Assembly: GCA_050949105.1 (NCBI GenBank)
Contig: JBMNFC010000009.1
Span: 273 to 24,272, forward strand
DNA: 24,000 nt
Reading direction: 5' to 3'
From: Acholeplasmatales bacterium
GTDB lineage: Bacteria > Bacillota_I > Bacilli_A > Acholeplasmatales > UBA5453
A model generated the notes under the pieces. It was given only the letters and a program-made list of their open reading frames with translations, was not told the DNA's origin and did not search any database. Each line of letters begins with the position of its first letter. The stretch's first letter is position 1. A program made the position numbers and the translations under genes. This document shows positions 1,186 to 22,749 of this stretch, piece by piece.

Positions 1186-1459
1186 TAGAAAGCCAATAGT
1201 TATTAAAGAGCCTAAATTAGATGAATCTTTTAAAATTATTCAATTTGTGAAAATTGAAGGCTTAAAGAAAAACAAACAAAGAAAATATAAACGCCAGGAA
1301 TTTATTAGTCCGATTTTTGGTTTAACTGTTAAAGATGATGTTGTGGCACCGTATGTTAATAAAGATACCGGTGATATTGCAAAACAATATGACTTTATGC
1401 GTGATCATCCAATTAATGATCCCAAAACTTATCATGAGTTTAAAGGAAACAATGGTTAA
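1172..1459 (+). CDS. hypothetical protein (95 aa), translationally coupled to or part of the downstream FtsK-like gene
   Basis: ORF track. Good SD AAAGGGGGA at 1155-1163, 8 nt before ATG 1172. The stop at 1457-1459 overlaps ATG 1452 of the translocase (ATGGTTAA). Confidence 0.55.
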   Translation: MSLFNRKPIVIKEPKLDESFKIIQFVKIEGLKKNKQRKYKRQEFISPIFGLTVKDDVVAPYVNKDTGDIAKQYDFMRDHPINDPKTYHEFKGNNG

Positions 1460-4193: not shown

Positions 4194-4221
4194 GGTTATG
4201 TAGTAATTTGAGGTGATTATT

Positions 4222-5215
4222 ATGAACTACACTCCACCATTTACAATAACTAACTTTATGATTGATAAGGTTTCTTCAATCATGAAAAATATTGGTAAAT
4301 TGGATAATTATCAAGATTTAAATAAAATGCCAGTATTAAGAAGAAATAATCGAATTCATTCGATTCATTCATCACTGGCAATCGAAGCCAATTTATTATC
4401 ATTTAATCAAGTGAAAGATATTATTGATGGGAAAACCGTAATTGGTCCTAAAAATGAAATAAAAGAAGTAAAAAATGCTTATAGTGCATATAAGTTAATA
4501 AATGAATTAAATCCATATCAAGTGAAAGATTTAAAAAGAGCTCATAGCGTGATGATGAATTTAATTGTTAAGGAATCTGGTGAATTTAGAAAGGGTCATG
4601 AAGGAGTGTTTGATGAAAAGGGGAATTGTATTCATTTGTGTCCTCCGCCTGAACAAATAAATTTACTAATTAATCAATTATTTAATTGGATGAAAGAAAA
4701 CAAAAATAAAATTCATCCCCTAATAGTATCATCAGTTTTTCATTATGAATTTGTGTTTATTCATCCGTTTTCTGATGGTAACGGAAGAATTGCGAGATTA
4801 TGGCAAAATGTCATCTTATCAAAATTTGAAATAATCTTTGAATATATGCCAATTGAAACACAAATTAAAAAATATCAAAAAGAGTATTACCAAGCAATAA
4901 ATATTTCTAACCAATCTGGAGATTCAACAGTGTTTATTGAATTCATGTTAAAAGTGATTGATGAAACAATTCTTGATTTACTAAAAAGCACTGCTACTGA
5001 AATTAACCGCGGTTAGCTTATATGTAAATAGACTTTTAGATGTAATGGAAGTAGGAGTAGAGTTAACTACTGCCGAGATGATGAGTAAATTAGGCTTAAA
5101 ATCAAGAATTTCGTTTAGAGAAAACTACTTAAAGCCAGCTTTAGAAAATGGCCTAATTAAGATGACCATTCCTGATAAACCGACTAGTAAAAATCAGATG
5201 TATTATAAGGTGTAA
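4222..5215 (+). pseudogene. fic: Fic/DOC-family AMP-transferase with C-terminal winged-helix domain, split by one frameshift near 4983-5014
   Basis: Fic active-site motif HPFSDGNGRIARL (4762-4800). N-terminal inhibitory-helix-like motif SSLAIEAN. The frame-1 ORF stops at 5014-5016. Frame 2 is open from 4985 to 5215 and encodes the typical Fic C-terminal tail (VSLYVNRLLDVMEVGVELTTAEMMSKLGLKSRISFRENYLKPALENGLIKMTIPDKPTSKNQMYYKV). Likely start is ATG 4222 (SD GAGGTG 6 nt upstream) rather than GTG 4213. Confidence 0.8.
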
Positions 5216-9005: not shown

Positions 9006-12000
9006 GTGAGATTTAAAAAGACGCTAAAATTATTAACATTAATTTCGTTTTTATTATTAGTACTTGTTGGTTGTGGAAAGACTGAGAACAATGAAAATAA
9101 TAAAGAAGATAAAGCAGGAGCTAAAATCTACTTAAAAGATGTAGAGGCAGATGTCGATATTGAGATTCCAATTGTAAAAGAAGGACCATTAGGTAAATCT
9201 GAATTGATGCCGATTCCTAAAATTAATGGGTATTTATTTGTTGGAACAGATGATTTTATTATTATTGAATATGCCCAACCATTTAGTACTTATTATCTTC
9301 CATACATAAAACTTGATGATATTAGACCTAATGAAGGTAGGATTATATTTAAGTTCGTTGATGATGATAACATAATGTTTGATTTTGTTCAAATTAAAGG
9401 TGAAGTTGGAACAAATTATAAATATGTAAATGAATATGTAAATAATGGGCTTAATTTAGTTGATCATAGTCAAAAAATAATTAATGTTACATTTGAAAGT
9501 GATGTTCAAATAATTATAGTAAGATATACTGAAAAAACAGCTGTATACTTTGCTCATGAATATAAAGTTAACTACTTAGAAAGGAATACTAATAAAGTTT
9601 TACACGAAACTAAGATAGGCGAGCATTATGCTGGACCATTAGAATTAGGTAAACATCCAGTAATTCCGGGTTATAAATTAGTGACTAACGAGACAATAAT
9701 AGAAATTACGGCCAATAACTCAGCCAATGTGTTAAATGTATACTATATTAAAGATGATAATCAATGGGTAACTATCGCATTTGAATCGGGATTAAATGCG
9801 ACATTTACTGGTTCAACACCAACTTCATATGAAGTAATTAAGAATCATCCGTTAAACGGAGCTAACCAACCCCAAATTAAATTACCAACAATTACTCCAA
9901 ATTCTGGATATATGCTCAATCCAAATGGAAATTGGTCACCAACATTATTAGCATTTGAAACTGATGAAGAAGTTTCAGAAGACATAACATTTTATGCTCA
10001 AGTAGTGGTAAATGAAGAGAAAAAATTTAATTATACAGTTTATTATTTAAATTTATCTTTTGGAAATGTCCATCCAAATAAAACAGGAACACATCATGTT
10101 GGATTATTAGATTTAGGTGAACATCCAGAAATTGCGGGTTTTATATGCACAACTGATGAAACAACATTAGAAATTACAGCTGATGAACATGCAAATGTAT
10201 TACGTGTTTATTATGAAAAAGATGATGAGCAATGGGCTACAATTACATTTTCACCGGGATCAAACGCTAGAACAGAAGGTCCTGCAGTTTATGAAGTAAT
10301 TAAGAACCATCCATTTAATGGTGCAAACCAACGAGAAATTATTCCACCATCACTATTTCCATATCTTGGATATATGATTGATCCAGCCGAAACCTGGTCT
10401 CCAGCATTCAAAGTTGATGGAACAGTTGAAGGAGATGTGACATTTGTTGCCCGAATAATTCCAAATGAAAGCCTTAAGTATGGGTATGTGGTTAACTACT
10501 TAGAAAAAGACAAACCTAATAACGTGTTATATAATAAGTTAACAGGAATGCATCATGTTGGAACATTAGATTTAGGTGAACATCCAGTAATTCCAGGTTA
10601 TAAGCTAGTAACAACTGAAACAACAATAGAAATTACAGTTCATGAATATCAAAATGGATTAAATGTTTATTATGAAAAAGATCCAACCAAGTGGGCTAAG
10701 ATTACATTTAGACAAGGTGCTAATGCAACAGTAGCTGAAACACAATTTGAGGTGATAGTAAATCATCCACTTAATGGTGCAAATCAACCTACTATTACAC
10801 CACCAGCAATTACTCCAAATTATGGTTACAAAGTATCAACTCAACCTTGGGGTTCAGTATATAGTGCAAATCTCCAAATAAGTGAAGCTACAACATTTAC
10901 CTCTAATGTAGTTGTAGATCAATTAGTAAAAACATTTACAGGGACAGTTAAATATCAAATTGAAGGTAAAGAAACTGTAGAAGAAACTAAAACGGTTAAT
11001 GGATATATTAATGAACTAGTGACCATACCAGCACATGCGGTATCTGGATATAAAGTTAAAGCATCACAACCTACTCATATTACAATACTAGAAGATGGTA
11101 GTGCAGTAAAAACAGTTTTATATGAAAAAGATCCAACCAAGTGGGCAAAGATTACATTTAGACAAGGGGCTAATGCAACAGTAGTTGAAACACAATTTGA
11201 GGTAATAGTAAATCATCCACTTAATGGTGCAAATCAACCTACTATTACACCACCAGCAATTACTCCAAATTATGGTTACAAAGTATCAACTCAACCTTGG
11301 GGTTCAGCATATAGTGCAAATCTCCAAATAAGTGAAGCTACAACATTTACCTCTAATGTAGTTGTAGATCAATTAGTAAAAACATTTACAGGGACAGTTA
11401 AATATCAAATTGAAGGTAAAGAAACTGTAGAAGAAACTAAAACGGTTAATGGATATATTAATGAACTAGTGACCATACCAGCACATGCGGTATCTGGATA
11501 TAAAGTTAAAGCATCACAACCTACTCATATTACAATACTAGAAGATGGTAGTGCAGTAAAAACAGTTTTATATGAAAAAGATCCAACCAAGTGGGCAAAG
11601 ATTACATTTAGACAAGGGGCTAATGCAACAGTAGTTGAAACACAATTTGAGGTGATAGTAAATCATCCACTTAATGGTGCAAATCAACCTACTATTAAAC
11701 CACCAGCAATTACTCCAGATTTAGGATATATGCTCAATCCAAATGAAGAAGATTGGTCACCAACATTTGAAGTTGCTGGACAAGTTACAGGACAACAAAT
11801 ATTTTATTCTCAAGTAGTACCTAATCCAGTATACTGGCGCGATGTTACTATTAAATATATAGGTCAAGATTTAAGTGGTTACTACACTACGGAATTGAAT
11901 ACTCACATTATTAGTGGAATTATTGGTAAAAATATAAATATTCCTAAAAAAGGTTTTACAGGTTTTTCTTATGAGTCAACTAACCCAACTACATATAAAG

Positions 12001-13391
12001 TTACTAGTGAAACTAATCAAGAAGTAACGGTTAAATATTCAAGAAGAAAAAACGCTATTTACTATTTAACTGAGGGAGGTCAACCAGTTCCAAGTCCTAC
12101 ATATAATGTCTATTATGGTGAGGAAGTTGTTGATGTATTTTATTTAGATTGTGAACCTAAAAAAACCGGTTATGTATTAACATGCTGGAATATTGGTGAT
12201 ACAGGACAACCATTAAAAGCAGGATATAAGATGCCAGATAATTTTATTAACTTAAAAGCTCAGTGGCAAGCAAACAGTTATACAATAGTATTTGATGGAA
12301 ATGGTGGTTCTGGTTCTATGCAAAATCAAACACTCACATATGACCAACAAATAGCATTAAACAAAAACCAATATTATAAAAATGAACATGACTTTATGGG
12401 GTGGTCTATTACACCTGGCGGTATAGCACAATATATTGATGAAGAAGTAGTAGCCGGCCTTGTAGAAAGCGGAACAATTACATTGTATGCGGTTTGGGAA
12501 TGGTGGGGTAGAAAGATAACATTTAATTTAAATGGTGGTAGTTTACCTGATGGAATTACTGAAATATATGTTAAAGATGCAAATTTCCCTTATGTCTTAC
12601 CATGGCCAACTAAAACACAAGGAGATGCCAATTTAGAATTCTTAGGTTGGTATTCAACAAATGACACTTCAGGAACTAAGTATAAGGTATTAAGTGTTAC
12701 TGAAGACTATACTTTATACGCTATATGGGGGGATGAGTGTTATTATATAGGCGAATATCCACAATCACTAATGGAAGATGCGGCACTAATAACAAAATTA
12801 GATCAGATAACACCTGAAGTATCAAGTAAAGAGTTATTTACATCAGGAGTTGAATCATATATTGAAGAATGGAAAACAGTTACTTATGGTGGGTATAAAT
12901 TTGAAAAAATGGGGGACAATTATTTTAAATATGAACCGATTGCGTTCTGTAAAGTAGCAGAAGATGGAACATTATATTCTAAATATATATTGGATTACTC
13001 AACTTTCGATAACGGTTTAGCAAATTCAAATAATTTTGACACTAGTTATGTTAAACAATATCTAAATGAAGTAATTAAGATTAAAGCAGGATTGACAACA
13101 ACATTAGGATTATTGTCAAAAGAACAACTATTGAATCCGATTAATTTTGCTAATGATGATGCAAGAAAAGCTACGCAAACAGATTATGCAAGAATAGCGA
13201 TATATCCAAATCGAAGAAGCAATCTACCTTGGGCTGGTGATACTAATTACATGAATCAATATTGGACAAATACCGCAGTATCAGGTGAAAATTATCGTGT
13301 CCATTATGTCAGTTGGGTAGGAGGGCATTTATCAGGCTGGGGTCTTGGTACTAATGGCGTAGTAGGTCTTCGTATTACTCTTAGTGATTAA
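9006..13391 (+). CDS. giant modular surface lipoprotein (1,461 aa): lipobox signal peptide, alternating MucBP-like and beta-repeat modules, three Listeria-Bacteroides (InlB B-repeat) type repeats, C-terminal globular domain
   Basis: GTG start 9 nt after AGGAGG. Signal peptide MRFKKTLKLLTLISFLLLVLVGC with lipobox LVGC (9063-9074). MucBP-like modules recur, e.g. YKVNYLE...IPGYKLV...NVYYIKD. Modules of the form WxxITFxxGxNAT...NHPLNGANQP...TPxxGY also recur. Flg_new-like units occur at about 12051-12732 (YTIVFDGNGGSG...GWS...TLYAVWE). The C-terminal domain ends YWTNTAVSG...GVVGLRITLSD. Confidence 0.9.
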   Translation: MRFKKTLKLLTLISFLLLVLVGCGKTENNENNKEDKAGAKIYLKDVEADVDIEIPIVKEGPLGKSELMPIPKINGYLFVGTDDFIIIEYAQPFSTYYLPYIKLDDIRPNEGRIIFKFVDDDNIMFDFVQIKGEVGTNYKYVNEYVNNGLNLVDHSQKIINVTFESDVQIIIVRYTEKTAVYFAHEYKVNYLERNTNKVLHETKIGEHYAGPLELGKHPVIPGYKLVTNETIIEITANNSANVLNVYYIKDDNQWVTIAFESGLNATFTGSTPTSYEVIKNHPLNGANQPQIKLPTITPNSGYMLNPNGNWSPTLLAFETDEEVSEDITFYAQVVVNEEKKFNYTVYYLNLSFGNVHPNKTGTHHVGLLDLGEHPEIAGFICTTDETTLEITADEHANVLRVYYEKDDEQWATITFSPGSNARTEGPAVYEVIKNHPFNGANQREIIPPSLFPYLGYMIDPAETWSPAFKVDGTVEGDVTFVARIIPNESLKYGYVVNYLEKDKPNNVLYNKLTGMHHVGTLDLGEHPVIPGYKLVTTETTIEITVHEYQNGLNVYYEKDPTKWAKITFRQGANATVAETQFEVIVNHPLNGANQPTITPPAITPNYGYKVSTQPWGSVYSANLQISEATTFTSNVVVDQLVKTFTGTVKYQIEGKETVEETKTVNGYINELVTIPAHAVSGYKVKASQPTHITILEDGSAVKTVLYEKDPTKWAKITFRQGANATVVETQFEVIVNHPLNGANQPTITPPAITPNYGYKVSTQPWGSAYSANLQISEATTFTSNVVVDQLVKTFTGTVKYQIEGKETVEETKTVNGYINELVTIPAHAVSGYKVKASQPTHITILEDGSAVKTVLYEKDPTKWAKITFRQGANATVVETQFEVIVNHPLNGANQPTIKPPAITPDLGYMLNPNEEDWSPTFEVAGQVTGQQIFYSQVVPNPVYWRDVTIKYIGQDLSGYYTTELNTHIISGIIGKNINIPKKGFTGFSYESTNPTTYKVTSETNQEVTVKYSRRKNAIYYLTEGGQPVPSPTYNVYYGEEVVDVFYLDCEPKKTGYVLTCWNIGDTGQPLKAGYKMPDNFINLKAQWQANSYTIVFDGNGGSGSMQNQTLTYDQQIALNKNQYYKNEHDFMGWSITPGGIAQYIDEEVVAGLVESGTITLYAVWEWWGRKITFNLNGGSLPDGITEIYVKDANFPYVLPWPTKTQGDANLEFLGWYSTNDTSGTKYKVLSVTEDYTLYAIWGDECYYIGEYPQSLMEDAALITKLDQITPEVSSKELFTSGVESYIEEWKTVTYGGYKFEKMGDNYFKYEPIAFCKVAEDGTLYSKYILDYSTFDNGLANSNNFDTSYVKQYLNEVIKIKAGLTTTLGLLSKEQLLNPINFANDDARKATQTDYARIAIYPNRRSNLPWAGDTNYMNQYWTNTAVSGENYRVHYVSWVGGHLSGWGLGTNGVVGLRITLSD
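10671..11716 (+). repeat. in-frame tandem duplication, 450-bp unit, about 2.3 copies
   Basis: Unit boundaries at 10681, 11131 and 11581. Copies 1 and 2 differ at only 5 positions (10697, 10718, 10735, 10754, 10858). The third copy diverges after about 11716. Confidence 0.9.
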
Positions 13392-13674: not shown

Positions 13675-14631
13675 ATGGGATTTTTTAAGATATTTAAAAG
13701 AAAGAAAAATGATAAATATAAATTAGGACTTCATAAGACAAGAGAGTCATTAGGAACTTTAACAGAAATTTTAGAGCGTAGTGATAGTATTACTGATGAT
13801 TTATATGACCAAATTGAAGAAGTTTTAATTATGGCTGATATTGGTGTTGAAGTAACGCTTAAATTTATGGAAATTTTAAGACGTGAACAAATTGCTAAAA
13901 ATATTAAAGATCCAAATGAATTAAAAGAAATTATCGTTGATGAAATGTTTAATATTTACTTAGAAGGTGAAGTTGTTAAAAGTGGTATTGACTATAATAA
14001 AGATGATATAAATGTATATATGTTTGTTGGAGTTAATGGAACTGGTAAAACAACATCTATTGGTAAACTTGCGTATATCTTTAAAAAAGATAAGAAAAAA
14101 GTTTTATTAATTGCCGCAGATACCTTTAGAGCTGGAGCAATTGACCAACTTAAAATTTGGGCTGATAGAGCGAAAGTAGACATTTTTTATAAGGAACAAG
14201 GTACAGATCCTTCAAGTGTAATTTATGATGGGCTAATGCTTGCGAAAAAGGAAAACTTTGATGTAGTATTAATTGATACTGCCGGGAGATTACACAATAA
14301 AGTTCAGTTAATGAATGAATTATCTAAAATGAGAAGAGTTATTGAAAAGGTTATTAGTATTGGACCTAAAGAAACTTTACTTGTGATTGATGCGACAACT
14401 GGACAAAACGGCATTAAACAAGCGGAAATCTTTAAAGAAGCAACTGATGTTACTGGAGTTGTCTTAACTAAGTTAGATGGTTCTTCAAAAGGGGGAATTG
14501 TCTTATCAATTAAACATTTATATAACTTACCAATTAAATATGTTGGTTTAGGTGAGAAAATAGAAGATTTAGTTTTATTTGATATTGAAGAATATATTTA
14601 CGGATTATTTAGTGATTTCTTTGGTGAATAG
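13675..14631 (+). CDS. ftsY: signal recognition particle receptor FtsY
   Basis: SRP-GTPase NG domain: GVNGTGKTTSIGKLA, DTAGRLHN, TKLDGSSKGG. Conserved ftsY-ylxM-ffh order. Confidence 0.93.
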   Translation: MGFFKIFKRKKNDKYKLGLHKTRESLGTLTEILERSDSITDDLYDQIEEVLIMADIGVEVTLKFMEILRREQIAKNIKDPNELKEIIVDEMFNIYLEGEVVKSGIDYNKDDINVYMFVGVNGTGKTTSIGKLAYIFKKDKKKVLLIAADTFRAGAIDQLKIWADRAKVDIFYKEQGTDPSSVIYDGLMLAKKENFDVVLIDTAGRLHNKVQLMNELSKMRRVIEKVISIGPKETLLVIDATTGQNGIKQAEIFKEATDVTGVVLTKLDGSSKGGIVLSIKHLYNLPIKYVGLGEKIEDLVLFDIEEYIYGLFSDFFGE

Positions 14632-14632
14632 T

Positions 14633-14950
14633 ATGTTAGAAAAAACAAATCATTTAAGTAGGTTATTTGATTTTTATCATAAATTACTTACAGACAAACA
14701 AAAAGATTATTTTATTATGTATTATCATAAGGATTATTCTTTACAAGAAATAGCCTCTTTTTACAATGTCTCAAGAAATGCGATTTATGATCAACTTAAA
14801 ATTACAGAAGAAAAGTTACTAGAATTTGAAGAAAAGTTACAGTTATTAGAAAAATCATTAAAGAAAGAAGAACTAATTAATGAATATCTAAAAACTAATA
14901 ATAAAGAACTATTAAAAAAGTTATTAGAAATGGATGAGTACTATGTTTGA
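14633..14950 (+). CDS. ylxM: YlxM/UPF0122 small HTH protein (SRP operon component)
   Basis: LLTDKQKDYFIMYYHKDYSLQEIASFYNVSRNAIYDQLK matches the YlxM sigma-70 region-4-like HTH. ATG 14633 follows GGTGA at 14623-14627, directly after the ftsY stop. The track start at 14579 lies inside ftsY. Confidence 0.85.
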   Translation: MLEKTNHLSRLFDFYHKLLTDKQKDYFIMYYHKDYSLQEIASFYNVSRNAIYDQLKITEEKLLEFEEKLQLLEKSLKKEELINEYLKTNNKELLKKLLEMDEYYV

Positions 14951-16328
14951 AAATCTATCAAGTCGCCTACAAATGGCGTTAAGAAGAGTTACAGGAAAAG
15001 GACAACTTACTGAAAAAGACATTGATGAAATGATGAGGGAAGTAAGGCTTTCTTTGCTAGAGGCAGACGTTAATTTAAAAGTAATTAGAACGTTTATCGC
15101 GAATGTCAAAGAAAAAGCTTTAGGAGAAAAGATCTTAAAGGGATTAAATCCTGGTCAACAAGTTTTAAAAATAGTTAGTGAAGAACTCACAAAAGTAATG
15201 GGCGAAGAAAATGTTCCCCTTAAGTTTAAAACTGCTGGTGTCACTGTCTTTATGACTGTTGGGCTTCAAGGTTCTGGTAAAACTACTGCGATAGGTAAGT
15301 TAGGAAGATTACTTAAAAAAGAAGGCAAAAAAGTGATGTTTATTGCCGCAGACGTTTACCGTCCTGCTGCAATTGATCAATTAAAGACATTAGGTGGTCA
15401 AACTGATATCTTTGTTTATGAAGAAGGAATTAAAAAAGCTTTAGGAATTGTTAAAAACGGTTTAGATTACGCGAAAGAAAATCACTATAACGTTGTCATA
15501 ATTGATACAGCGGGAAGATTAGAAATTGACGCTGAGATGATGCAAGAACTTAAAGATATTAAAGAGTTTGCTGCACCTGATGAAATTTTATTAACCGTTG
15601 ATGCGATGATGGGTCAACAAGCCGCGAATGTGGGGTTATCTTTTCATGAACAATTAGGTTGTACAGGTGTTATTGTCACTAAACTTGATGGGGATACTCG
15701 TGGTGGTGCAGCACTATCAATTAGACAAATATCTTCCTTACCAATTAAGTATGTCTCAAGTGGTGAGAAATTAGATAGCCTAGAGGTTTTCCATCCAGAA
15801 AGAATGGCCCAAAGGATTCTTGGAATGGGCGATATGATGACTTTAATCGAAGAGGCAACGGCGAATATTTCCGAAGATGACGCGATGAGTTTAATGGAAA
15901 AAATGCTTAGTGGTAAGTATGATTATAATGACCTACTAAAACAGTTTAAAATGATTAAACGCATGGGTTCATTATCAAGAATATTAGGTTTTTTACCAGG
16001 AATGAAAAACCTTAAACAACAATTATCTAATGTTGATGATAAAGAACTTTTTAGAATTGAAGCGTTAGTTAAATCAATGACTAAGGAAGAAAGAAGTAAT
16101 CCTCTTTTAATTGAAAAACAATACAAACGAAGACGAAGAATTGCCGATGGAGCTGGGATGACTGTTAATGATGTCAATAAGTTAATTGAATCAAGACGCC
16201 AACAAATTAATATGGCTCAACAGATGCAAGGTATGAATCCAAATAGTTTAAATCCACAAATGCCTAAGATGCAACCTCAAAGGGTTAAAAAGGGCAAAGG
16301 TAAAGGTAGAGGCGGATTTAGATATTAA
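14943..16328 (+). CDS. ffh: signal recognition particle protein Ffh
   Basis: N-terminal MFENLSSRLQ. GLQGSGKTT, DTAGRL, TKLDGDTRGGAA. Met-rich M domain and basic tail. ATG 14943 overlaps the ylxM TGA (ATGTTTGA). An in-frame ATG at 14934 is the alternative start. Confidence 0.93.
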   Translation: MFENLSSRLQMALRRVTGKGQLTEKDIDEMMREVRLSLLEADVNLKVIRTFIANVKEKALGEKILKGLNPGQQVLKIVSEELTKVMGEENVPLKFKTAGVTVFMTVGLQGSGKTTAIGKLGRLLKKEGKKVMFIAADVYRPAAIDQLKTLGGQTDIFVYEEGIKKALGIVKNGLDYAKENHYNVVIIDTAGRLEIDAEMMQELKDIKEFAAPDEILLTVDAMMGQQAANVGLSFHEQLGCTGVIVTKLDGDTRGGAALSIRQISSLPIKYVSSGEKLDSLEVFHPERMAQRILGMGDMMTLIEEATANISEDDAMSLMEKMLSGKYDYNDLLKQFKMIKRMGSLSRILGFLPGMKNLKQQLSNVDDKELFRIEALVKSMTKEERSNPLLIEKQYKRRRRIADGAGMTVNDVNKLIESRRQQINMAQQMQGMNPNSLNPQMPKMQPQRVKKGKGKGRGGFRY

Positions 16329-16354
16329 ACATGTAAAGTTTATTAAATGACACG

Positions 16355-16396
16355 AGAATGTATTATATCAGAGAAATATAAATACATTCTTTTTTA
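16355..16396 (+). terminator. rho-independent terminator after ffh
   Basis: Perfect 10-bp stem AGAATGTATT (16355-16364) / AATACATTCT (16381-16390), followed by TTTTT. Confidence 0.7.
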
Positions 16397-16423
16397 TGTT
16401 TTCGCTCACTTAGCATTGAAATA

Positions 16424-16432
16424 TGTTAAAAT
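16424..16432 (+). promoter_or_regulatory. extended -10 element TGtTAAAAT, candidate promoter of the NTPase gene
   Basis: tgttaaaat at 16424-16432, located downstream of the ffh terminator and 70 nt upstream of ATG 16502. Confidence 0.4.
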
Positions 16433-16501
16433 TAACTTAGAAGTCTAATATCTAAATCAACCAAAAATAAGTTTTAGTATGGAAAAAAAAGGGGGGAGAA
16501 A

Positions 16502-19500
16502 ATGGGTAACGACACAAAAAATAAAATTGATTTAAACACTATAGAATTGCCAAGTAATGAGCCTAAATACCATGAGGAATATAAGGCTTATGCTACTATT
16601 TTAAAGAAGAAAATTGATGATATTAATATAAAAAACATTGGGATAGTAGCTCCATATGGTGCTGGGAAAAGTTCTTTATTAAAAACATATGTTGAGATGC
16701 AAACTAAAGAAGATAAAAACTTCAAAAATAGGGTAATATCAGTATCATTAGCTAATTATGGTTCAATTATAAAAAAACTTGCTAATAAAGAAGATAAACA
16801 AGATGATTTTAATGATGAACAAAATGTAGAAAAAAGCATACTACAACAATTGTTTTACAAAAATGATAATAAAAATACTCCATATTCTAGATTTAAAACT
16901 TTAAAAAATAAAACAAAGCAAAATATAGGTATAACGATATTGCTTTTGCTTTTATTTATGTCAATTTCCTTTTTGTCTTTTCAGTTTTTTGATAACATTT
17001 TTAAAATTAATTTTGCTCTTTTGTGCCATAAAATAGTTATAGGTGTAAATATATTAGTATTATTGGTAAGTTTAGGGGGTTTGCTTTTCATTGTTATAAA
17101 AAACAAATTCGTAAAGTCAGTTCAAGTTGGAAATCTTAATTTTGAAAAAAATGAAAGTGATTCTATATCTGTTTTTAATAAGTATTTAGATGAAATAATT
17201 TATTTTTTTCAAAAAAATGATTTTAATATTTTAATAATTGAGGATTTAGATAGATTTAACAATTTAGGAATTTTTTCAAAATTGAAAGAGTTAAATACTT
17301 TATTAAATAAAAATGATGCTATTATTAAAAAACATGGGAAAATTACATTTGTGTACGCAGTGAAAGATTCTATGTTTGAATGTGAAGAAGATAGAAGTAA
17401 ATTTTTTGAATTTATTTTGCCAGTAATGCCGTCTTTAACTTCAAAAAATGTTAAAGATGAGTTAGAAGATATGCTAAAAAAGAAATTTAAAAAAATGCCT
17501 TTGAGTTCGCAATTAGTAATAGATGTTTCCGATTATATTACTAGTAGAAGAATTCTTAATAATGTTGTTAGCGATTTTATCATTCATTTATTGATACTCA
17601 ATATTGATATGATTGATAAAGATAAAACAGATAAATTATTTAGTCTAATGGTTTTAAAAAACATATTACCACTAGAATATGAAAATTTACAAAACCAAAA
17701 CGAAAAATCGCTTATTTTTAAATTTTTAAATATAGTAAAAAAAGAAATAATTGATAAATTAGTCTCTGTTTATAAAGAAAAAATAAAGCAATATGAGGAA
17801 GAAATTAAAAAACAAGACAAAGAACATCTTGATTCAAAAGAGGATTTAAAAAATATATTTTATGGTTTAGTTTGCAGAAAATATTTCGAATATAGTCATA
17901 TCAAGTATGAATTAGATACTTTCATTGGAACGAATAAAATAAACATGAGTGCTAGAAATTACTATAATTCGTCAACTTTCACTGTTTCGGTTAAAGATAT
18001 TGAGACATCAAACAACTATGAAGACGGCTTTTTTTCAAAAAGAGAAAATGTAATACTACAAAAAATGAATTTTGATAAAAACAATATAATCAAAGAAATA
18101 AACAAATTAAAGAGAAAAATTAACGAATTAAATAATTTGACATTTAAAGAATTGTTTAATGACTATAATCAAGAATTTGATGATTTAAATTTTGAAAAAG
18201 AATATATTAGATTAGTATTAGTGAATGGTTATGTAGATGAGACATATATGGATTATCTTTCTGAACAGTCTGATTTTTTTATGACTTCTAATGACAAAGA
18301 GTTGATAAAAAAAATAAATTATAGAGAAAAAACAGGTTTTTTAGATAAAATAGATGAACCAGATAAAGTGGTTTTGGCTTTAGATGAAAATAAATTTGGC
18401 TATAAGTATGTTATGAATTATTTTATAATCAAAGAATTGATTAATAAGAAAAAGAAGTATTCAAAACAGTTTGAAAATTTCACAATGATGATAAAAAACG
18501 AAGAAGATAGTATCAAAGAAGCTTTAGAAGAGTTAGTTAATTCTGATTTAGATTATGATAGTATTTTAATAGTGTTATCTAAACATACAACCTATACATG
18601 GGATCTGATTTATAAAAGTAATTTAATTTCAGATGACAAAAAAGATGAGATGTTTTTTTTGTTGATAAACAGCGAAGAAATAAATATTGAAAATCTGAGT
18701 AACTTAAACCATAATGAGAATATTATTAAAAAAATAAATTCTGTTAAAAATTTTTGTCAAAAATTTAATTCTCAAACAATAACAATAGAAAAATTGCATG
18801 AAGAATTTAATCTTTATTTAAATGATGTTGGTGAAATAGTAAAAAATAAAAATTCTGATTTTGTTATAAAAAACAACTTATATGAATTAAACTTGAATAA
18901 TATAGTAAACATCTTAAAATACTATTATTCTGAAGAAGAAAAAGATATTAATTCAAGAAATTATGATGTTGTTTCTAATTTGGCAGAAGGATCATTTAAA
19001 GAAAGAATTACTGAAGATTTAAGTTCATACTTACAAATTATTTACAACAATTTAGACAATGGTGATTTGTCGATCGAAAAGTTAACTGAAATATTAATAA
19101 ATAAAGAAATAGATATAAATTTAAAGACGAAAATTATAGAAAAAGAGATTAATAACATAGATTATAATGTTAGTCTCGATAATGAAATTCTTGAATTACT
19201 ATTAAAAAAGAAAAGAATAAAGATGTCTTTAAATAACATAATAGATGTTTATAAAACAGTAGATGAAGAATTAATTAAAAATTATATAGAAGAAAACCAT
19301 AAAGATATGCAGATAACGGAAGAATTACTGAAAAATAATACAGAATTTAAAAGTTTTTTCTTTAACAGCGTAGATATCAGTCTGTTTATTGAAAAAATTG
19401 GAAGTGGCTATGACAATATATCAGCAATTGTAAATTCTAAAAACATTGAACTACTTTTAAACAATGAGTTGGTAACGTATTGTAAAGATGATTTTCGTAT

Positions 19501-19996
19501 TTTTTTAAACAAAGAAGTTCATTTAGAAAAATATTGTGAGTTATTTGGTGATAACATCCTCAATGAATGTTTGAATGGAACTATGATACCAAAATCGGAT
19601 GAAATTGTGACAATGTATTTTGCTACAAAAAAAAGTAAGGGGGAATTATTTAATTGGATTTTGAAGAGAATTACCGAAACAGAATTACAAGAAATTTTCA
19701 AAAAAGAAAACATTAATGATTTTATTAATTCAGTAGAAGATATAGATTGTTTAACTAATGATGTACGGAAATATATAATTAATGAAACAAATGATAAAGA
19801 AATAATTGAAAAAAATTTAATTTCTTTACATAAAAATGGTTACAAAGATTGGTTATCTATTTTTAGAGAGAAAAATAATTTTATCAAAAATAGTGTCTAT
19901 AGATATGAATATCATAATGAAGAATTTTATTATTTATTAAGAAGTAATGTCCATTGTAACCGTAGAAAAGGCGTTGCAACGATAAGATTTTCGTGA
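16502..19996 (+). CDS. YobI/KAP-family-like P-loop NTPase with a transmembrane hairpin inserted in the NTPase domain and a long helical C-terminal region (1,164 aa)
   Basis: Walker A GIVAPYGAGKSS (nt 16640-16675). Two hydrophobic helices at aa ~141-163 (16922-16990) and aa ~172-199 (17015-17098). Walker B ILIIEDLDRF (17228-17257). The remaining ~830 aa are K/E/N/I-rich with coiled-coil-like stretches. G-rich SD at 16491-16498. TGA stop. Confidence 0.85.
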   Translation: MGNDTKNKIDLNTIELPSNEPKYHEEYKAYATILKKKIDDINIKNIGIVAPYGAGKSSLLKTYVEMQTKEDKNFKNRVISVSLANYGSIIKKLANKEDKQDDFNDEQNVEKSILQQLFYKNDNKNTPYSRFKTLKNKTKQNIGITILLLLLFMSISFLSFQFFDNIFKINFALLCHKIVIGVNILVLLVSLGGLLFIVIKNKFVKSVQVGNLNFEKNESDSISVFNKYLDEIIYFFQKNDFNILIIEDLDRFNNLGIFSKLKELNTLLNKNDAIIKKHGKITFVYAVKDSMFECEEDRSKFFEFILPVMPSLTSKNVKDELEDMLKKKFKKMPLSSQLVIDVSDYITSRRILNNVVSDFIIHLLILNIDMIDKDKTDKLFSLMVLKNILPLEYENLQNQNEKSLIFKFLNIVKKEIIDKLVSVYKEKIKQYEEEIKKQDKEHLDSKEDLKNIFYGLVCRKYFEYSHIKYELDTFIGTNKINMSARNYYNSSTFTVSVKDIETSNNYEDGFFSKRENVILQKMNFDKNNIIKEINKLKRKINELNNLTFKELFNDYNQEFDDLNFEKEYIRLVLVNGYVDETYMDYLSEQSDFFMTSNDKELIKKINYREKTGFLDKIDEPDKVVLALDENKFGYKYVMNYFIIKELINKKKKYSKQFENFTMMIKNEEDSIKEALEELVNSDLDYDSILIVLSKHTTYTWDLIYKSNLISDDKKDEMFFLLINSEEINIENLSNLNHNENIIKKINSVKNFCQKFNSQTITIEKLHEEFNLYLNDVGEIVKNKNSDFVIKNNLYELNLNNIVNILKYYYSEEEKDINSRNYDVVSNLAEGSFKERITEDLSSYLQIIYNNLDNGDLSIEKLTEILINKEIDINLKTKIIEKEINNIDYNVSLDNEILELLLKKKRIKMSLNNIIDVYKTVDEELIKNYIEENHKDMQITEELLKNNTEFKSFFFNSVDISLFIEKIGSGYDNISAIVNSKNIELLLNNELVTYCKDDFRIFLNKEVHLEKYCELFGDNILNECLNGTMIPKSDEIVTMYFATKKSKGELFNWILKRITETELQEIFKKENINDFINSVEDIDCLTNDVRKYIINETNDKEIIEKNLISLHKNGYKDWLSIFREKNNFIKNSVYRYEYHNEEFYYLLRSNVHCNRRKGVATIRFS

Positions 19997-20027
19997 TTTT
20001 TAAGGAATTAATAAAGCAAAAATAGTT

Positions 20028-20064
20028 AAAGACACACGATGATTTTCATTGTTGTGTCTTTTTA
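20028..20064 (+). terminator. rho-independent terminator after the NTPase gene
   Basis: Stem AAAGACACA (20028-20036) / TGTGTCTTT (20053-20061), extendable through CGATGA/TCATTG, followed by a T-run. Confidence 0.65.
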
Positions 20065-20066
20065 TA

Positions 20067-20089
20067 TAATCCACAAATATAGTGGATAA
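20067..20089. promoter_or_regulatory. two inverted DnaA-box-like 9-mers (TAATCCACA and, on the minus strand, TTATCCACT)
   Basis: Each is an 8/9 match to TTATCCACA. They are head-to-head with a 5-bp spacer, about 30 bp upstream of the polA promoter. The core ATCCAC/GTGGAT also forms a 6-bp inverted repeat. Confidence 0.3.
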
Positions 20090-20102
20090 CTAAATCATCA
20101 GA

Positions 20103-20124
20103 TATCATATTAATATGATAGAAT
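20103..20124 (+). promoter_or_regulatory. polA promoter region: extended -10 TGaTAGAAT (20116-20124) overlapped by a perfect 18-bp palindrome TATCATATTAATATGATA (20103-20120)
   Basis: Both elements were read directly from the sequence. SD AAGGAG at 20130-20135 and ATG at 20143 follow. Confidence 0.4.
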
Positions 20125-20142
20125 AATTAAAAGGAGTTTTTT

Positions 20143-22749
20143 ATGAAATTAGTCTTAATTGATGGAAATTCAATATTTTACAGGGCATACTACGCAACCG
20201 CTTATGGTAATGTGATGAAAAATAAAGATGGCTTATTTACTAATGCGATATTTGCGTTTATTAATATGATGGAGCCGATTTTAGAAGGTGATTATACTCA
20301 TATATTAGTTGCGTTTGATACGGATAAACCAACACATCGTCATTTAGCCTATGAAGATTATAAAGCGACACGCTCACCAATGCCTGATGAGATGGCTATT
20401 CAAATCCCTTTAATGCATGAATACTTACATCATAAAAACATTAAAACTTGTAGTATTGATGGCTATGAAGCTGATGATATTATTGGCACATACTCAAAGC
20501 TTGCTGATAATAATTTAAAGGTGGAAATTTATTCCTCTGACCAAGACTTGCTTCAATTAATAAATGATAATGTTACAGTTAAACTAATTAAAAAAGGAAC
20601 TAAAGATATTAGAGATATGAATCCTGAGACATTCTTAGAAGAATATGGTTTTCCATATGAGTCAATTGTTGATTATAAAGCTTTATTAGGAGATTCAAGC
20701 GATAATATTAAAGGTATTCCTGGAGTTGGAAAAGTAACGGCGAAGAACTTAATTTTACAGTATGGGTCACTAGAAAACATCTATAAACATAAAGATGAAA
20801 TAGCTGGTAAAGTTGGCGAAAATATTAGAGAAAATGAAAAGCTCGCCAAAGAAAGTTATGAACTATCTAGAATACTTACTAATGTTCCAGTAGAACTTAC
20901 ACTTGATGATTTATCTAAAAGTGAAGTTGACTATGAAAGTTTAATTGAGTTTTATAAGAATATGGATTTTCATTCATTTATTAAAAAGTTAGATGTTCCA
21001 ACATTAGAATCACAAGCGTTAACTCACAGTTTTAAAGTCGGTAAAAGTGAGGATTTAAATTACTTCATTAAAGATAATATTAGTATTTATTGTGAGTTTT
21101 TTGAATCTAATTATCACTTATCAGAAGTAGTTGGAATTGGATTAAGTGATGGAAAGAAATGTTTATTTGTAACTGAAGAAGAGATGTTGTCAAATAAAGC
21201 ATTTATGGACTTTTTAAGAAGCGAAAGACCTAAATATACTTATGATTATAAAGCTTTTAAAGTAAGACTTTTAAAACTAGGTTATGATATAAATGGAGTA
21301 GTGTTTGATTTATTGCTTGCAGCGTATTTGGATAATCCAGAAATAGTTAAGAAAAATGATTTTAAAGTTATTACGGGTTTTTATAATTATGATGATTTAG
21401 AATATGATGATTTAATTTATACTAAGAAGGCGACTAAAGTACTACCTGATGAAAAACGAGTTTATATAGAGCATATTACTAAAAAAGCAAAAGCAATTCA
21501 TAAATTAGAACTAGTGCTAATTGAAAAATTAAAGATTAACCAACAACTTAGTCTTTTATTAGATTTAGAAATTCCGCTATCAAGAGTTTTAGCAAAAATG
21601 GAATACAGTGGAATATACGTTGATAAAGCCATTTTAGGCGAACTAAAGCATGAGTATTCTAAAAGACTTAAAGACTTAGAAGAGCGCATTTATACGCTTG
21701 CGTTAAAAGAGTTTAATATTAATAGTCCTAAACAATTAGGCGAAGTTTTATTTGATGATTTAGGTTTAGAGCCATCGAAAAAGACGAAAACTAAAAACTA
21801 TTCAACTAATATTGAAGTTTTAAATAGTTTAGTTGATGATCATCCAATTATAAGAGAGATTATTGATTATCGTAGTGTTTCAAAATTATATGGAACATAT
21901 ATTGAAGGAATTGAAAATGTTATTTTTCCTGATGGTAAAGTTCATACAATATATAACCAAGCCTTAACAGCGACAGGAAGATTATCATCAATTGAACCTA
22001 ATTTACAAAATATTCCAATTAAGACTGAAGATGGTAGACAAATTAGAAGAATGTTTACTACTAATAATTATTTTGTGGGCGCTGACTATTCTCAGATTGA
22101 ACTTCGTGTTTTAGCCCATATGAGCGATTCTAAGACATTAATTGATGCTTTTAATAATGGTCTGGATATTCACACAGAAACGGCGAAAAAAGTCTTTAAT
22201 AAAGAAACTATTACTGATGAAGAACGAAGAAAAGCGAAAGCCGTTAACTTTGGAATTATTTATGGAATTAGCGCTTTTGGTTTATCTGAAGATCTTAAGA
22301 TTCCAAGATGGATGGCTCAAGAATTTATTGATAAGTACTTCTTAATTTATCCAGAAATTAAAGAGTTTTTAGATTCACAAGTTGAGTTTGCAAATAAGGA
22401 AGGCTATGTTAAGACAATTATGAATAGACGTAGGTATATTCCTGAGTTAAAAAGCTCAATTTATCCAACAAGAGAATTTGGTAAACGCACGAGTATGAAC
22501 GCGCCAATCCAAGGAAGTGCCGCCGACATTCTTAAAAAAGCGATGGTTGATTTAGATAATTATATTGTAAAAAATAATTTATCATCAAAAATATTATTAA
22601 CTGTTCATGACGAACTTATTTTAGAAGTTCCCGAACATGAGTTAAACTTAATGACTAAAGTTTTAAAAGAAACAATGATTAATACAGTGGAATTAAAAGT
22701 TTCTTTAAAAACTGAAGTTAAAGTTGGAAAGAGTTGGTATGATATTTAA
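20143..22749 (+). CDS. polA: DNA polymerase I
   Basis: N-terminal 5'-nuclease domain (LIDGNSIFYRAYYA, GDSSDNIKGIPGVG). Pol motif A DYSQIELRVLAH, motif B RRKAKAVNFGIIYG, motif C VHDELILE. Confidence 0.95.
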   Translation: MKLVLIDGNSIFYRAYYATAYGNVMKNKDGLFTNAIFAFINMMEPILEGDYTHILVAFDTDKPTHRHLAYEDYKATRSPMPDEMAIQIPLMHEYLHHKNIKTCSIDGYEADDIIGTYSKLADNNLKVEIYSSDQDLLQLINDNVTVKLIKKGTKDIRDMNPETFLEEYGFPYESIVDYKALLGDSSDNIKGIPGVGKVTAKNLILQYGSLENIYKHKDEIAGKVGENIRENEKLAKESYELSRILTNVPVELTLDDLSKSEVDYESLIEFYKNMDFHSFIKKLDVPTLESQALTHSFKVGKSEDLNYFIKDNISIYCEFFESNYHLSEVVGIGLSDGKKCLFVTEEEMLSNKAFMDFLRSERPKYTYDYKAFKVRLLKLGYDINGVVFDLLLAAYLDNPEIVKKNDFKVITGFYNYDDLEYDDLIYTKKATKVLPDEKRVYIEHITKKAKAIHKLELVLIEKLKINQQLSLLLDLEIPLSRVLAKMEYSGIYVDKAILGELKHEYSKRLKDLEERIYTLALKEFNINSPKQLGEVLFDDLGLEPSKKTKTKNYSTNIEVLNSLVDDHPIIREIIDYRSVSKLYGTYIEGIENVIFPDGKVHTIYNQALTATGRLSSIEPNLQNIPIKTEDGRQIRRMFTTNNYFVGADYSQIELRVLAHMSDSKTLIDAFNNGLDIHTETAKKVFNKETITDEERRKAKAVNFGIIYGISAFGLSEDLKIPRWMAQEFIDKYFLIYPEIKEFLDSQVEFANKEGYVKTIMNRRRYIPELKSSIYPTREFGKRTSMNAPIQGSAADILKKAMVDLDNYIVKNNLSSKILLTVHDELILEVPEHELNLMTKVLKETMINTVELKVSLKTEVKVGKSWYDI

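What the first reader, a model, noticed from the sequence alone, without database searches (positions are those of the whole stretch)
16329..20142. Insulated, AT-skewed single-gene island between ffh and polA encoding a YobI/KAP-like NTPase: candidate one-gene conflict/defence module
Seen: the gene is a closed transcription unit. The ffh terminator (16355-16396) is followed by its own TGnTAAAAT -10 (16424-16432), a G-rich SD, the ORF 16502-19996, and its own terminator (20028-20064), which precedes the polA promoter. Hand counts of six 60-nt lines inside the gene give 8-16 G+C (13-27%). Three lines in ffh and polA give 18-25 G+C (30-42%), so the gene is visibly more AT-rich than both housekeeping flanks. 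Established: in Bacillota ffh is normally followed by rpsP-(khpA)-rimM-trmD-rplS, and that linkage is absent here. KAP/YobI-type NTPases are patchily distributed and experimentally uncharacterised, and comparative genomics has proposed roles for them in biological conflict. Inference: this is a horizontally acquired stand-alone module, possibly a membrane-anchored NTP-driven sensor/effector acting against phage or mobile DNA. I found no integrase, tRNA or flanking direct repeats by eye, so the acquisition route is unknown.
Basis: partly seen in the sequence, partly recalled or inferred. Interest (0 to 1): 0.85.

Follow-up and report, generated by a model that had tools for sequence, protein, structure and literature searches.

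The report
Tmn-family anti-phage NTPase gene insertion
A single 3.7-kb gene inserted between two housekeeping genes of an uncultured Acholeplasma-like bacterium encodes a membrane-anchored ATPase of the Tmn/YobI family, which is already a validated one-gene anti-phage defence, so this is a clean but ordinary new member of a known kind.

Summary
ORF 16502-19996 (1164 aa) is intact. It has its own extended -10, a purine-rich SD and hairpins on both sides. Its GC is 22.5% against 30% for the rest of the window.

An empty site shows it is an insertion. In 31 of 32 Acholeplasmataceae-type loci where polA lies downstream of ffh, polA starts 115-253 bp after ffh. In the nearest relative (Ffh 94-95% identical) homology stops at the ffh stop codon and resumes at about 20005. 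None of 80 related loci carries the gene, and its closest homologues (at most 57% identity) sit in unrelated contexts, some beside an IS or serine-recombinase genes.

- Pfam YobI-ATPase, E 3e-84.
- PADLOC Tmn, E 3e-39, 78% of the profile.
- hhalign to E. coli plasmid Tmn, probability 100%, 976 columns.
- Two TM helices lie between Walker A and Walker B.
- All nine NTPase-domain residues at the seven mutated sites that abolished defence in E. coli Tmn are conserved.
- The AlphaFold model shows the coiled-coil arm and the alpha-solenoid arm.

Verdict: horizontally acquired, single-gene Tmn defence; a new member of a known kind. The trigger, the acquisition route and activity in a presumably wall-less host remain untested.

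The parts
16329..20004 (.). Inserted segment (about 3.68 kb), absent from the nearest relative.
   Evidence: blastn against L006: homology (88%) ends at the ffh stop codon (16328) and resumes by 20053. By eye, GAATTAATAAA at 20005-20015 matches GAATTATTAAA directly after the ffh stop in L006. The right boundary is therefore approximate (20005-20053). GC is 0.226.
16354..16396 (+). AT-rich hairpin plus T-run downstream of ffh. It now probably terminates ffh and lies inside the insert.
   Evidence: Fold dG -10.7 kcal/mol, z -2.6. It has no counterpart in L006.
16424..16432 (+). Extended -10 promoter element TGTTAAAAT.
   Evidence: Read. TATGnTAAAAT is also found at a similar distance upstream of the homologues in L002 and L004. 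No good -35 was found. The generic promoter scan gives no more hits than shuffled sequence, so this is a consensus match supported only by conservation.
16490..16498 (+). Purine-rich Shine-Dalgarno-like run AGGGGGGAG.
   Evidence: Read.
16502..19996 (+). tmn-like gene encoding a 1164-aa YobI/Tmn-family transmembrane P-loop NTPase.
16589..17701 (+). [quoted passage not shown]
   Evidence: Pfam PF20693, E 3.3e-84, profile positions 1-359 of 363.
16649..16672 (+). Walker A motif (aa 50-57, APYGAGKS; G55 and K56).
   Evidence: Y52, G53, G55, K56 and S57 are invariant in 56 homologues. G55/K56 align with G66/K67 of E. coli Tmn.
16913..17107 (+). Two transmembrane helices (aa 138-162 and 173-202) inserted within the NTPase domain.
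   Evidence: Kyte-Doolittle peaks of 2.5 and 2.65. Helices H138-162 and H173-202 appear in the AF2 model.
17228..17251 (+). Walker B motif (aa 243-250, ILIIEDLD; E247, D248, D250).
   Evidence: These residues are invariant in 56 homologues. D248 and R251 align with D276 and R279 of E. coli Tmn.
17711..18181 (+). Proximal arm (aa 404-560): long coiled-coil helices with a small beta domain (aa 466-496).
   Evidence: AF2 model. It aligns to E. coli Tmn by hhalign. F506, Y541 and R544 correspond to L471, F511 and R514.
18287..19876 (+). Distal arm (aa 596-1125): about 36 short helices forming an alpha-solenoid, the presumed trigger sensor.
   Evidence: AF2 pLDDT is mostly 85-95 here. Foldseek matches importin-13, CRM1 and PP2A-A HEAT solenoids. 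The last ~200 aa are conserved in only 7 representative clusters.
20028..20065 (+). Intrinsic terminator after tmn. It occupies the position of the ancestral ffh terminator.
   Evidence: dG -16.8, z -4.4. Its 3' half and T-run align with the L006 ffh terminator.
14934..16328 (+). ffh, the left flank (syntenic backbone).
   Evidence: Pfam SRP54, SRP_SPB and SRP54_N. 94% aa identity to L006 (95%).
20143..22749 (+). polA, the right flank (syntenic backbone).
   Evidence: Pfam DNA_pol_A and 5'-3' exonuclease domains. 90% aa identity to L006.

Best explanation
What it is. The segment 16329-~20004 is a horizontally acquired, self-contained one-gene anti-phage defence cassette of the Tmn family (YobI-type transmembrane P-loop NTPase). 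It was inserted just after the ffh stop codon into the short ffh-polA spacer of an Acholeplasmatales genome.

Shown here:
- the insertion itself;
- full-length homology to E. coli Tmn;
- conservation of the catalytic residues and of the arm residues;
- two TM helices between Walker A and Walker B;
- a coiled-coil arm plus an alpha-solenoid arm.

Inferred from published work on E. coli Tmn. The protein is expected to assemble into a membrane-anchored oligomer, with the NTPase hub and both arms in the cytoplasm. The variable C-terminal solenoid would bind an early phage protein. Productive binding would switch on ATP hydrolysis. That hydrolysis would drive ion (Mg2+) export and ATP depletion, which arrests phage replication and may awaken ATP-sensing defences.

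Expression. The gene is probably transcribed from its own extended -10 promoter. It is probably insulated by a hairpin that came with the insert (upstream) and by the former ffh terminator (downstream).
For: Insertion.
- The order ftsY-ylxM-ffh-polA-fpg (topA upstream where the locus reaches it) is seen in the 32 related loci with polA downstream of ffh. The ffh-polA gap is 115-253 bp in 31 of them.
- The nearest relative, L006, has an empty site with 87-88% identical flanks.
- No tmn hit is found in any of the 80 loci.
- The closest homologues are only 50-57% identical and sit in unrelated neighbourhoods, next to an rve transposase gene and serine-recombinase genes in L002 and L004.
- Synonymous codon usage is atypical, z 8.7.

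Family.
- PF20693, E 3.3e-84.
- PADLOC Tmn, E 3.4e-39 over 78% of the profile. This passes the filter of Wu et al. 2026, namely at least 50% coverage and E below 1e-10.
- BLASTP to E. coli IncF Tmn gives 29% identity, E 1e-43. hhalign gives probability 100, E 2e-76, 976 columns.
- G55/K56, Y234, D248, R251, N269, K300/F301 and R350 match the residues whose mutation abolished defence in Tmn-25.
- AF2 model with pLDDT 84 shows the described architecture. Foldseek hits are HEAT solenoids and the RADAR protein RdrA/AAA+.
- The C-terminal arm occurs only in proteins of the same architecture.

Mechanism. Taken from PMC13001434 and 10.1101/2022.08.21.504612.
Against: - No experiment exists for this protein or for any Bacillota or Acholeplasmatales Tmn. 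The variants tested by Wu et al. came from clades Ia, Ib and VIII. Ia and Ib are exclusively Enterobacteriaceae, and the clade VIII example named in the paper is a Shewanella.
- Identity to the validated protein is only 29% in the NTPase domain and about 19% overall.
- The known trigger (T-even RIIB) cannot be the trigger here.
- The published phenotype, plasmolysis, presupposes a rigid envelope. Acholeplasmatales are classically wall-less (textbook knowledge, not tested here).
- The mechanism paper is a preprint with an 11.6 Å map.
- The promoter and the upstream hairpin are consensus or energy predictions only. The generic scans were not enriched.
Confidence: 0.8

Rival explanations
1. It is a YobI-family membrane NTPase that serves inter-element conflict or element maintenance, for example exclusion of plasmids or conjugative elements, or addiction. 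On this reading phage defence is not its main role, and it is a remnant cargo gene of a decayed mobile element.
For: - In E. coli, tmn sits in the leading region of conjugative IncF plasmids next to toxin-antitoxin genes.
- 480 of the 632 plasmids with a match are conjugative.
- The homologue in L002 lies beside an IS and a serine-recombinase gene, and the one in L004 beside an ORF with a weak recombinase zinc-ribbon hit.
- No phage record carries a homologue.
Against: The only experimentally shown activity of the family is anti-phage. The insert here carries no other element genes, so nothing is left to maintain. The two roles are not mutually exclusive.
Confidence: 0.1
2. It is a lineage-specific housekeeping membrane ATPase or ion exporter, for example for Mg2+ homeostasis, that merely looks foreign because its protein is K/N/I-rich.
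For: GC3 of the gene (0.183) is like that of its neighbours, and much of the GC dip comes from amino-acid composition. E. coli Tmn is reported to export Mg2+.
Against: - The sister genome has an empty site, and the gene is absent from all 80 related loci.
- The nearest homologues are not syntenic.
- Synonymous codon usage deviates, z 8.7.
- The distribution is patchy, and the C-terminus is variable as expected for a sensor.
Confidence: 0.04
3. It is an inactive relic, or an artefact of metagenome binning or assembly (a chimeric join), and not a functional gene of this organism.
For: The source is a MAG. FtsK in the same window appears frameshifted, so assembly errors or gene decay occur in this contig.
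Against: - The ORF is full length (1164 aa against 1158-1205 for relatives), with every invariant family residue intact.
- An independent Logan assembly of a sequencing run (L001, SRR31061295) contains the same ffh-tmn-polA join, with 100% identical proteins.
- Both junctions fall in intergenic DNA, and the ancestral terminator is preserved.
Confidence: 0.03

Closest known systems
Tmn (transmembrane NTPase) single-gene anti-phage defence of E. coli, clades Ia/Ib. Named by Gao et al. 2020; Wu et al. 2024 Cell Host Microbe; Wu et al. 2026 preprint PMC13001434.
   Same: - One-gene system.
- YobI-type P-loop NTPase with two TM helices between Walker A and Walker B.
- All nine NTPase-domain residues at the seven mutated sites that abolished defence are conserved.
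- Coiled-coil proximal arm with a small alpha/beta insert, followed by a long alpha-solenoid distal arm.
- Homology spans about 1000 residues.
- No conserved operon partners.
   Different: - 29% identity in the NTPase domain and about 19% overall.
- About 100 aa shorter (1164 against 1268).
- The last ~200 aa are unrelated by sequence to E. coli Tmn and are shared with only 7 representative clusters.
- Chromosomal, in an Acholeplasmatales MAG, rather than on an enterobacterial plasmid or chromosome.
- The trigger cannot be T-even RIIB.
- The host is presumably wall-less, so 'plasmolysis' as described cannot apply literally.
Tmn clade VII of Bacillota, e.g. the Sutcliffiella horikoshii plasmid copy (NZ_CP082921.1).
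   Same: It is the best match among 72,556 plasmids: 29.4% identity over aa 47-667. Two Tmn variants of this strain's assembly (GCF_019931755.1) are given as clade VII examples by Wu et al.. Both hosts are Bacillota in the broad sense.
   Different: It is still distant. Clade assignment of the window protein was not done with the authors' tree. No clade VII member has been tested experimentally according to the text read.
KAP-family NTPases: PifA of the F plasmid, RdrA of RADAR, and EF_KAP of Enterococcus faecalis (PMC13552941).
   Same: They are P-loop NTPases used in phage defence. EF_KAP has a TM helix inside its NTPase domain. In EF_KAP the C-terminal region is required for defence. RdrA is a structural hit to the N-terminal domain.
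   Different: Pfam KAP_NTPase (PF07693) does not match this protein at E up to 1. Wu et al. 2026 treat YobI as a family separate from KAP. The C-terminal architecture differs.
Avs/STAND anti-phage NTPases.
   Same: The logic is the same: a repeat-containing C-terminal sensor that recognises a phage protein, plus an NTPase that switches on an effector output within one large polypeptide.
   Different: The NTPase class is different. There is no separate N-terminal effector domain. The protein is membrane-embedded. The oligomer is reported as a decamer rather than a tetramer.

Membership tests
Tmn / YobI-family transmembrane NTPase defence system | Significant match to the PADLOC Tmn profile, using the inclusion rule of Wu et al. 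2026: at least 50% profile coverage and E below 1e-10. | tested here: met
   PDLC02220, E 3.4e-39, profile positions 40-1037 of 1273 (78%), protein aa 28-957. The rule was read.
Tmn / YobI-family transmembrane NTPase defence system | [quoted passage not shown] | tested here: met
   PF20693, E 3.3e-84. G55/K56/S57 and E247/D248/D250 are invariant in 56 homologues.
Tmn / YobI-family transmembrane NTPase defence system | Two transmembrane helices inserted inside the P-loop domain, between Walker A and Walker B. | tested here: met
   Hydropathy peaks cover aa 139-166 and 168-204. AF2 helices are at 138-162 and 173-202. Walker A is at aa 50-57 and Walker B at 243-250.
Tmn / YobI-family transmembrane NTPase defence system | Conservation of the residues whose mutation abolished defence in Tmn-25: G66/K67, Y262, D276/R279, N297, K325/F326, R374; and in the proximal arm F506, Y541/R544. 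| tested here: met
   The equivalents are G55/K56, Y234, D248/R251, N269, K300/F301 and R350, all identical. In the proximal arm, L471 and F511 are conservative changes and R514 is identical.
Tmn / YobI-family transmembrane NTPase defence system | Cytosolic C-terminal arms: a proximal coiled coil with an alpha/beta domain, and a distal alpha-solenoid (ARM/HEAT-like). | tested here: met
   AF2 model with pLDDT 84.4: helices 404-460 and 510-544, strands 466-496, and about 36 short helices at 596-1125. Foldseek matches importin-13, CRM1 and PP2A-A. hhalign runs through Tmn residue 1075.
Tmn / YobI-family transmembrane NTPase defence system | Self-contained single gene with no conserved operon partner. 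| tested here: met
   The insert contains only this ORF. Neighbourhoods of the homologues differ.
Tmn / YobI-family transmembrane NTPase defence system | Decameric membrane assembly, trigger-stimulated ATP turnover and Mg2+ export. | not testable with these tools
   Known only for E. coli Tmn. Testing needs biochemistry or multimer modelling.
Tmn / YobI-family transmembrane NTPase defence system | Protection against phage infection. | not testable with these tools
   No experimental data exist for this protein or its near relatives.
KAP NTPase family (Pfam PF07693) | Match to the KAP_NTPase profile. | tested here: not met
   No PF07693 hit at E up to 1. A few distant homologues carry both PF07693 and PF20693 annotations, so the families are related. 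This protein should be filed under YobI, not KAP.
Genomic island delivered by an integrase or tRNA-site element | An integrase or recombinase gene, a tRNA target, and flanking direct repeats. | tested here: not met
   No such ORF is in the insert. No tRNA is in the window. No repeat joins the two junctions beyond a trivial TTAA.

The most novel reading that the evidence does not exclude
This subclade of Tmn works in a wall-less (Mollicutes-type) cell, where plasmolysis in the published sense cannot occur. The protective output would then be something other than cytoplasm-wall separation, for example pure ATP/Mg2+ collapse or cell shrinkage. Its subclade-specific C-terminal ~200 residues would sense a protein of Acholeplasma-type phages (plasmaviruses or plectroviruses), which have no RIIB. 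That would separate the essential core of the Tmn mechanism from the envelope phenotype seen in E. coli.
Probability: 0.25. Interest if true: 0.5.

Novelty: new member of a known kind. Interest (0 to 1): 0.25.

Why it matters
This is a textbook-clean example of a one-gene defence cassette dropped into a conserved housekeeping spacer. A matching empty site survives in a sister genome, and the ancestral ffh terminator is re-used by the incoming gene.

It extends the Tmn family to Acholeplasmatales. That lineage is probably missing from the RefSeq-based survey of Wu et al. because it is represented largely by MAGs (my inference). Its cells are presumably wall-less, so the published plasmolysis phenotype would need reinterpreting there.

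It does not reveal a new kind of system. A routine PADLOC run would flag the gene.

Tried and rejected
- The strict terminator scan over 14500-21000 found none, and promoter-like sites were no more frequent than in shuffles. Both hairpins were therefore assessed by folding instead.
- NCBIfam gave no family.
- PDB by sequence gave no hit, so no deposited Tmn structure could be used.
- Phage genomes gave no tblastn hit, so there is no evidence for phage-borne delivery.
- The supplementary tables of Wu et al. 2026 are not held, so I could not check whether Acholeplasmatales are already in their data set, nor assign a clade from their tree.
- Cluster look-up of ten homologues returned no source names, so the taxonomy of the nearest homologues is unresolved.
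- No tRNA was found in the window, and no integrase or recombinase ORF in the insert.
- The repeat search found no direct repeat bracketing the insert. A TTAA at both junctions is too short to mean anything in 23% GC DNA.
- I first took GC content as the HGT signal. I rejected it as sufficient because GC3 is host-like. It was replaced by the empty-site comparison and a synonymous-codon test.
- I considered the KAP label and rejected it, because PF07693 is not matched.

Full report
**1. Observation**

The window carries a single long ORF at 16502-19996 on the + strand (1164 aa). It lies between ffh (14934-16328) and polA (20143-22749).

- TGTTAAAAT at 16424-16432 and the purine run AGGGGGGAG at 16490-16498 can be read directly.
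- The hairpin at 16354-16391 with its T-run folds at -10.7 kcal/mol (z -2.6).
- The hairpin at 20028-20061 with its T-run folds at -16.8 kcal/mol (z -4.4; none of 200 shuffles does as well).

A strict consensus scan called neither hairpin, and promoter-like hexamers are no more frequent than in shuffled sequence. The transcription-unit picture is therefore plausible, not proven.

On composition, the gene is 22.5% GC against 30.2% for the rest of the window. This needs qualifying. GC3 (0.183) is inside the range of the neighbours (0.15-0.25). The deficit is at codon positions 1 and 2, because the protein is rich in Lys, Asn and Ile. When the amino-acid sequence is held fixed, synonymous codon choice still departs strongly from the pooled syntenic genes (z 8.7). 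Every syntenic gene, including the long polA and topA, stays at or below z 1.9.

- AT skew is not unusual.
- Residue 249 is Leu. The Walker B acidic residues are E247/D248.
- The absence of rpsP after ffh is not specific to this island (see section 2).

**2. The gene is an insertion**

The protein is 100% identical to a hypothetical protein of an NCBI MAG named 'Acholeplasmatales bacterium'. An independent Logan assembly of a sequencing run contains the same ffh-gene-polA join.

I scanned one genome per species with Ffh and kept 80 related loci. I then located the window's proteins in them by tblastn.
- The 32 loci with polA downstream of ffh, mostly labelled Acholeplasma, Acholeplasmataceae or Mariniplasma, have the order ftsY-ylxM-ffh-polA-fpg, with topA upstream where the locus reaches it. 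polA starts 115-253 bp after ffh in 31 of them.
- The exception, L022, has 939 bp holding a VanY peptidase gene on the other strand. The spacer has therefore been hit at least twice.
- None of the 80 loci contains a homologue of the gene.
- The nearest relative is L006 (Ffh 94-95%, PolA 90% identical; flanking DNA 87-88%). It has the ffh stop at 1685 and the polA start at 1803. Nucleotide homology to the window ends exactly at the ffh stop (16328) and resumes by 20053. By eye it resumes at 20005, where GAATTAATAAA matches the GAATTATTAAA that follows the ffh stop in L006.

The insert is therefore about 3.68 kb, 16329-~20004. The terminator that now follows the new gene sits where the ancestral ffh terminator sits in L006. 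The two share the 3' stem half and the T-run. The upstream hairpin and the promoter lie inside the insert. A TATGnTAAAAT element also occurs at a similar distance upstream of two of three homologues examined, which suggests the promoter travels with the gene.

The closest homologues are only 50-57% identical and sit in unrelated neighbourhoods. One lies beside an rve transposase gene and a serine-recombinase gene. Another lies beside an ORF with a weak recombinase zinc-ribbon hit. They too are more AT-rich than their flanks: 0.20-0.23 against 0.26-0.29.

I found no integrase, tRNA or meaningful target duplication. How it arrived is still unknown.

Two other Acholeplasmatales-type loci that lack polA after ffh do not have rpsP there either. 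The 'missing rpsP linkage' is therefore a trait of the lineage.

**3. What the protein is**

Profile and sequence matches:
- Pfam gives YobI-ATPase (PF20693, E 3.3e-84, aa 30-400) and no KAP_NTPase match.
- PADLOC gives Tmn (E 3.4e-39, aa 28-957 against profile positions 40-1037 of 1273).
- An E. coli IncF plasmid protein of 1268 aa scores 2046 bits on the same profile and so represents canonical Tmn. It aligns to the window protein at 29% identity over aa 29-421 (E 1e-43).
- A profile of 56 homologues aligns to that E. coli protein with probability 100%, E 2e-76, over 976 columns reaching Tmn residue 1075.

Motifs and residues:
- Two hydrophobic helices (aa 138-162 and 173-202) lie between Walker A (G55/K56) and Walker B (E247/D248). 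This is the signature of the family as described by Wu et al..
- All nine NTPase-domain residues at the seven mutated sites that abolished defence in E. coli Tmn-25 are identical here: G66/K67 to G55/K56, Y262 to Y234, D276 to D248, R279 to R251, N297 to N269, K325/F326 to K300/F301, and R374 to R350.
- The proximal-arm residues are conservative or identical: L471, F511 and R514.

Structure:
- An AlphaFold2 model (mean pLDDT 84.4) shows the P-loop core with the TM hairpin.
- A long coiled coil (404-460 and 510-544) carries a small beta domain (466-496).
- About 36 short helices follow from 596 to 1125.
- Foldseek finds HEAT solenoids (importin-13, CRM1, PP2A-A) for the C-terminal part. It finds AAA+/ORC-Cdc6 and the RADAR ATPase RdrA for the N-terminal part.

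This is the architecture reported for Tmn.

A search with the C-terminal 605 residues alone found 147 representative clusters. The full-length hits (about 1100-1300 aa) match at the equivalent position, and the shorter hits look like fragments. Only seven clusters extend over the last ~200 residues. This fits a fast-evolving sensor end.

**4. How it most likely works**

The published account of Tmn runs as follows. The system was named by Gao et al. 2020. Its synergy with other defences was described by Wu et al. 2024. The mechanism comes from Wu et al. 2026, a preprint.
- Tmn is a membrane-anchored decamer with cytosolic arms.
- The solenoid arm binds an early phage protein (T2 RIIB).
- Productive binding raises ATP turnover.
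- Mg2+ is exported and ATP falls.
- The cytoplasm collapses and phage development stops.
- The ATP drop can wake up Gabija and Septu.

For the window gene, the architecture and the catalytic apparatus are shown here. Oligomer state, trigger, ion export and protection are inferred by homology.

Several cautions apply:
- The tested variants came from clades Ia, Ib and VIII. Ia and Ib are exclusively Enterobacteriaceae, and the clade VIII example named in the paper is a Shewanella.
- The best plasmid-borne relative of the window protein is in Sutcliffiella horikoshii, whose Tmn variants Wu et al. place in clade VII. That clade was not among those chosen for testing.
- RIIB cannot be the trigger in an Acholeplasma-like host.
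- Acholeplasmatales are classically wall-less. This rests on my own knowledge. The only hint in the window is that the large surface protein has a lipoprotein signal, LVGC.

**5. Rivals**

- A role in inter-element conflict rather than phage defence cannot be excluded, and it is compatible with the plasmid bias of the family.
- A housekeeping role is contradicted by the empty site and the non-syntenic homologues.
- An assembly artefact is unlikely, because an independent assembly of a sequencing run contains the same join.

**6. Novelty and score**

Its stated basis, that the family is uncharacterised, is out of date. PADLOC recognises the protein, and it passes the inclusion rule used in the family survey.

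This is a new member of a known kind. The point of interest is modest: a very clean insertion with an empty-site comparator, in a lineage of presumably wall-less bacteria. Interest 0.25.

Noticed in passing
window 9006-13391 (+): A 1461-aa surface lipoprotein lies between topA and ftsY. It has a signal peptide with the lipobox LVGC, and MucBP and Listeria-Bacteroides repeat domains. It is absent from all 80 related loci; in L007 topA and ftsY are only about 90 bp apart. Its synonymous codon usage is as atypical as that of tmn (z 9.4). It is a second, independent insertion into the same syntenic backbone.
   Followed up: partly
window 4213-5016 (+): A 267-aa Fic/DOC protein matches the PADLOC SoFic profile (E 1.8e-36, profile positions 21-268 of 361). 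It has no counterpart in any of the 80 related loci, so it may be a second single-gene defence candidate 12 kb upstream of tmn. Its codon usage is host-like (z 1.3). The match may only reflect the generic Fic fold.
   Followed up: partly
window 1172-3287 (+): FtsK is split. Intact orthologues of 703-717 aa (L007, L008, L010) align to the window in two frames, with a switch near 1440-1447. The ORF list also breaks the gene at about 2870-2915. This is either a pseudogene or frameshift errors in the MAG assembly.
   Followed up: partly
window 16315-16336 and 16437-16458: The last 13-14 nt of ffh (GATTTAGATATTAA) recur as an inverted copy in the presumed tmn 5' UTR (TAATATCTAAATC). In the MFE fold of 16300-16510 the two arms pair and enclose the upstream hairpin and the promoter (overall z only -2.3). 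This could be chance, a scar of the insertion, or a structure that forms only in ffh read-through transcripts.
   Followed up: partly
L022 11420-12290: In an Anaeroplasmatales MAG the ffh-polA spacer is 939 bp and holds a VanY D-Ala-D-Ala carboxypeptidase gene on the opposite strand. The same spacer has thus accepted a different single gene in another lineage.
   Followed up: partly
L002 8001-11498, L003 8001-11492, L004 3764-7252: The nearest tmn homologues are each 5-7 GC points more AT-rich than their own flanks (0.20-0.23 against 0.26-0.29). Two have a TATGGTAAAAT element upstream. L002 has an rve transposase gene and a serine-recombinase gene within 6 kb, and L003 has Fic and AAA_14/DUF4143 genes nearby.
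   Followed up: partly
window 19382-19993 (aa ~960-1164 of the protein): The C-terminal ~200 residues, including a small alpha/beta end (strands at 1132-1162), are conserved in only 7 of 147 representative clusters that match the C-terminal half. They lie beyond the region aligned to E. coli Tmn. This is a subclade-specific module of unknown role.
   Followed up: no
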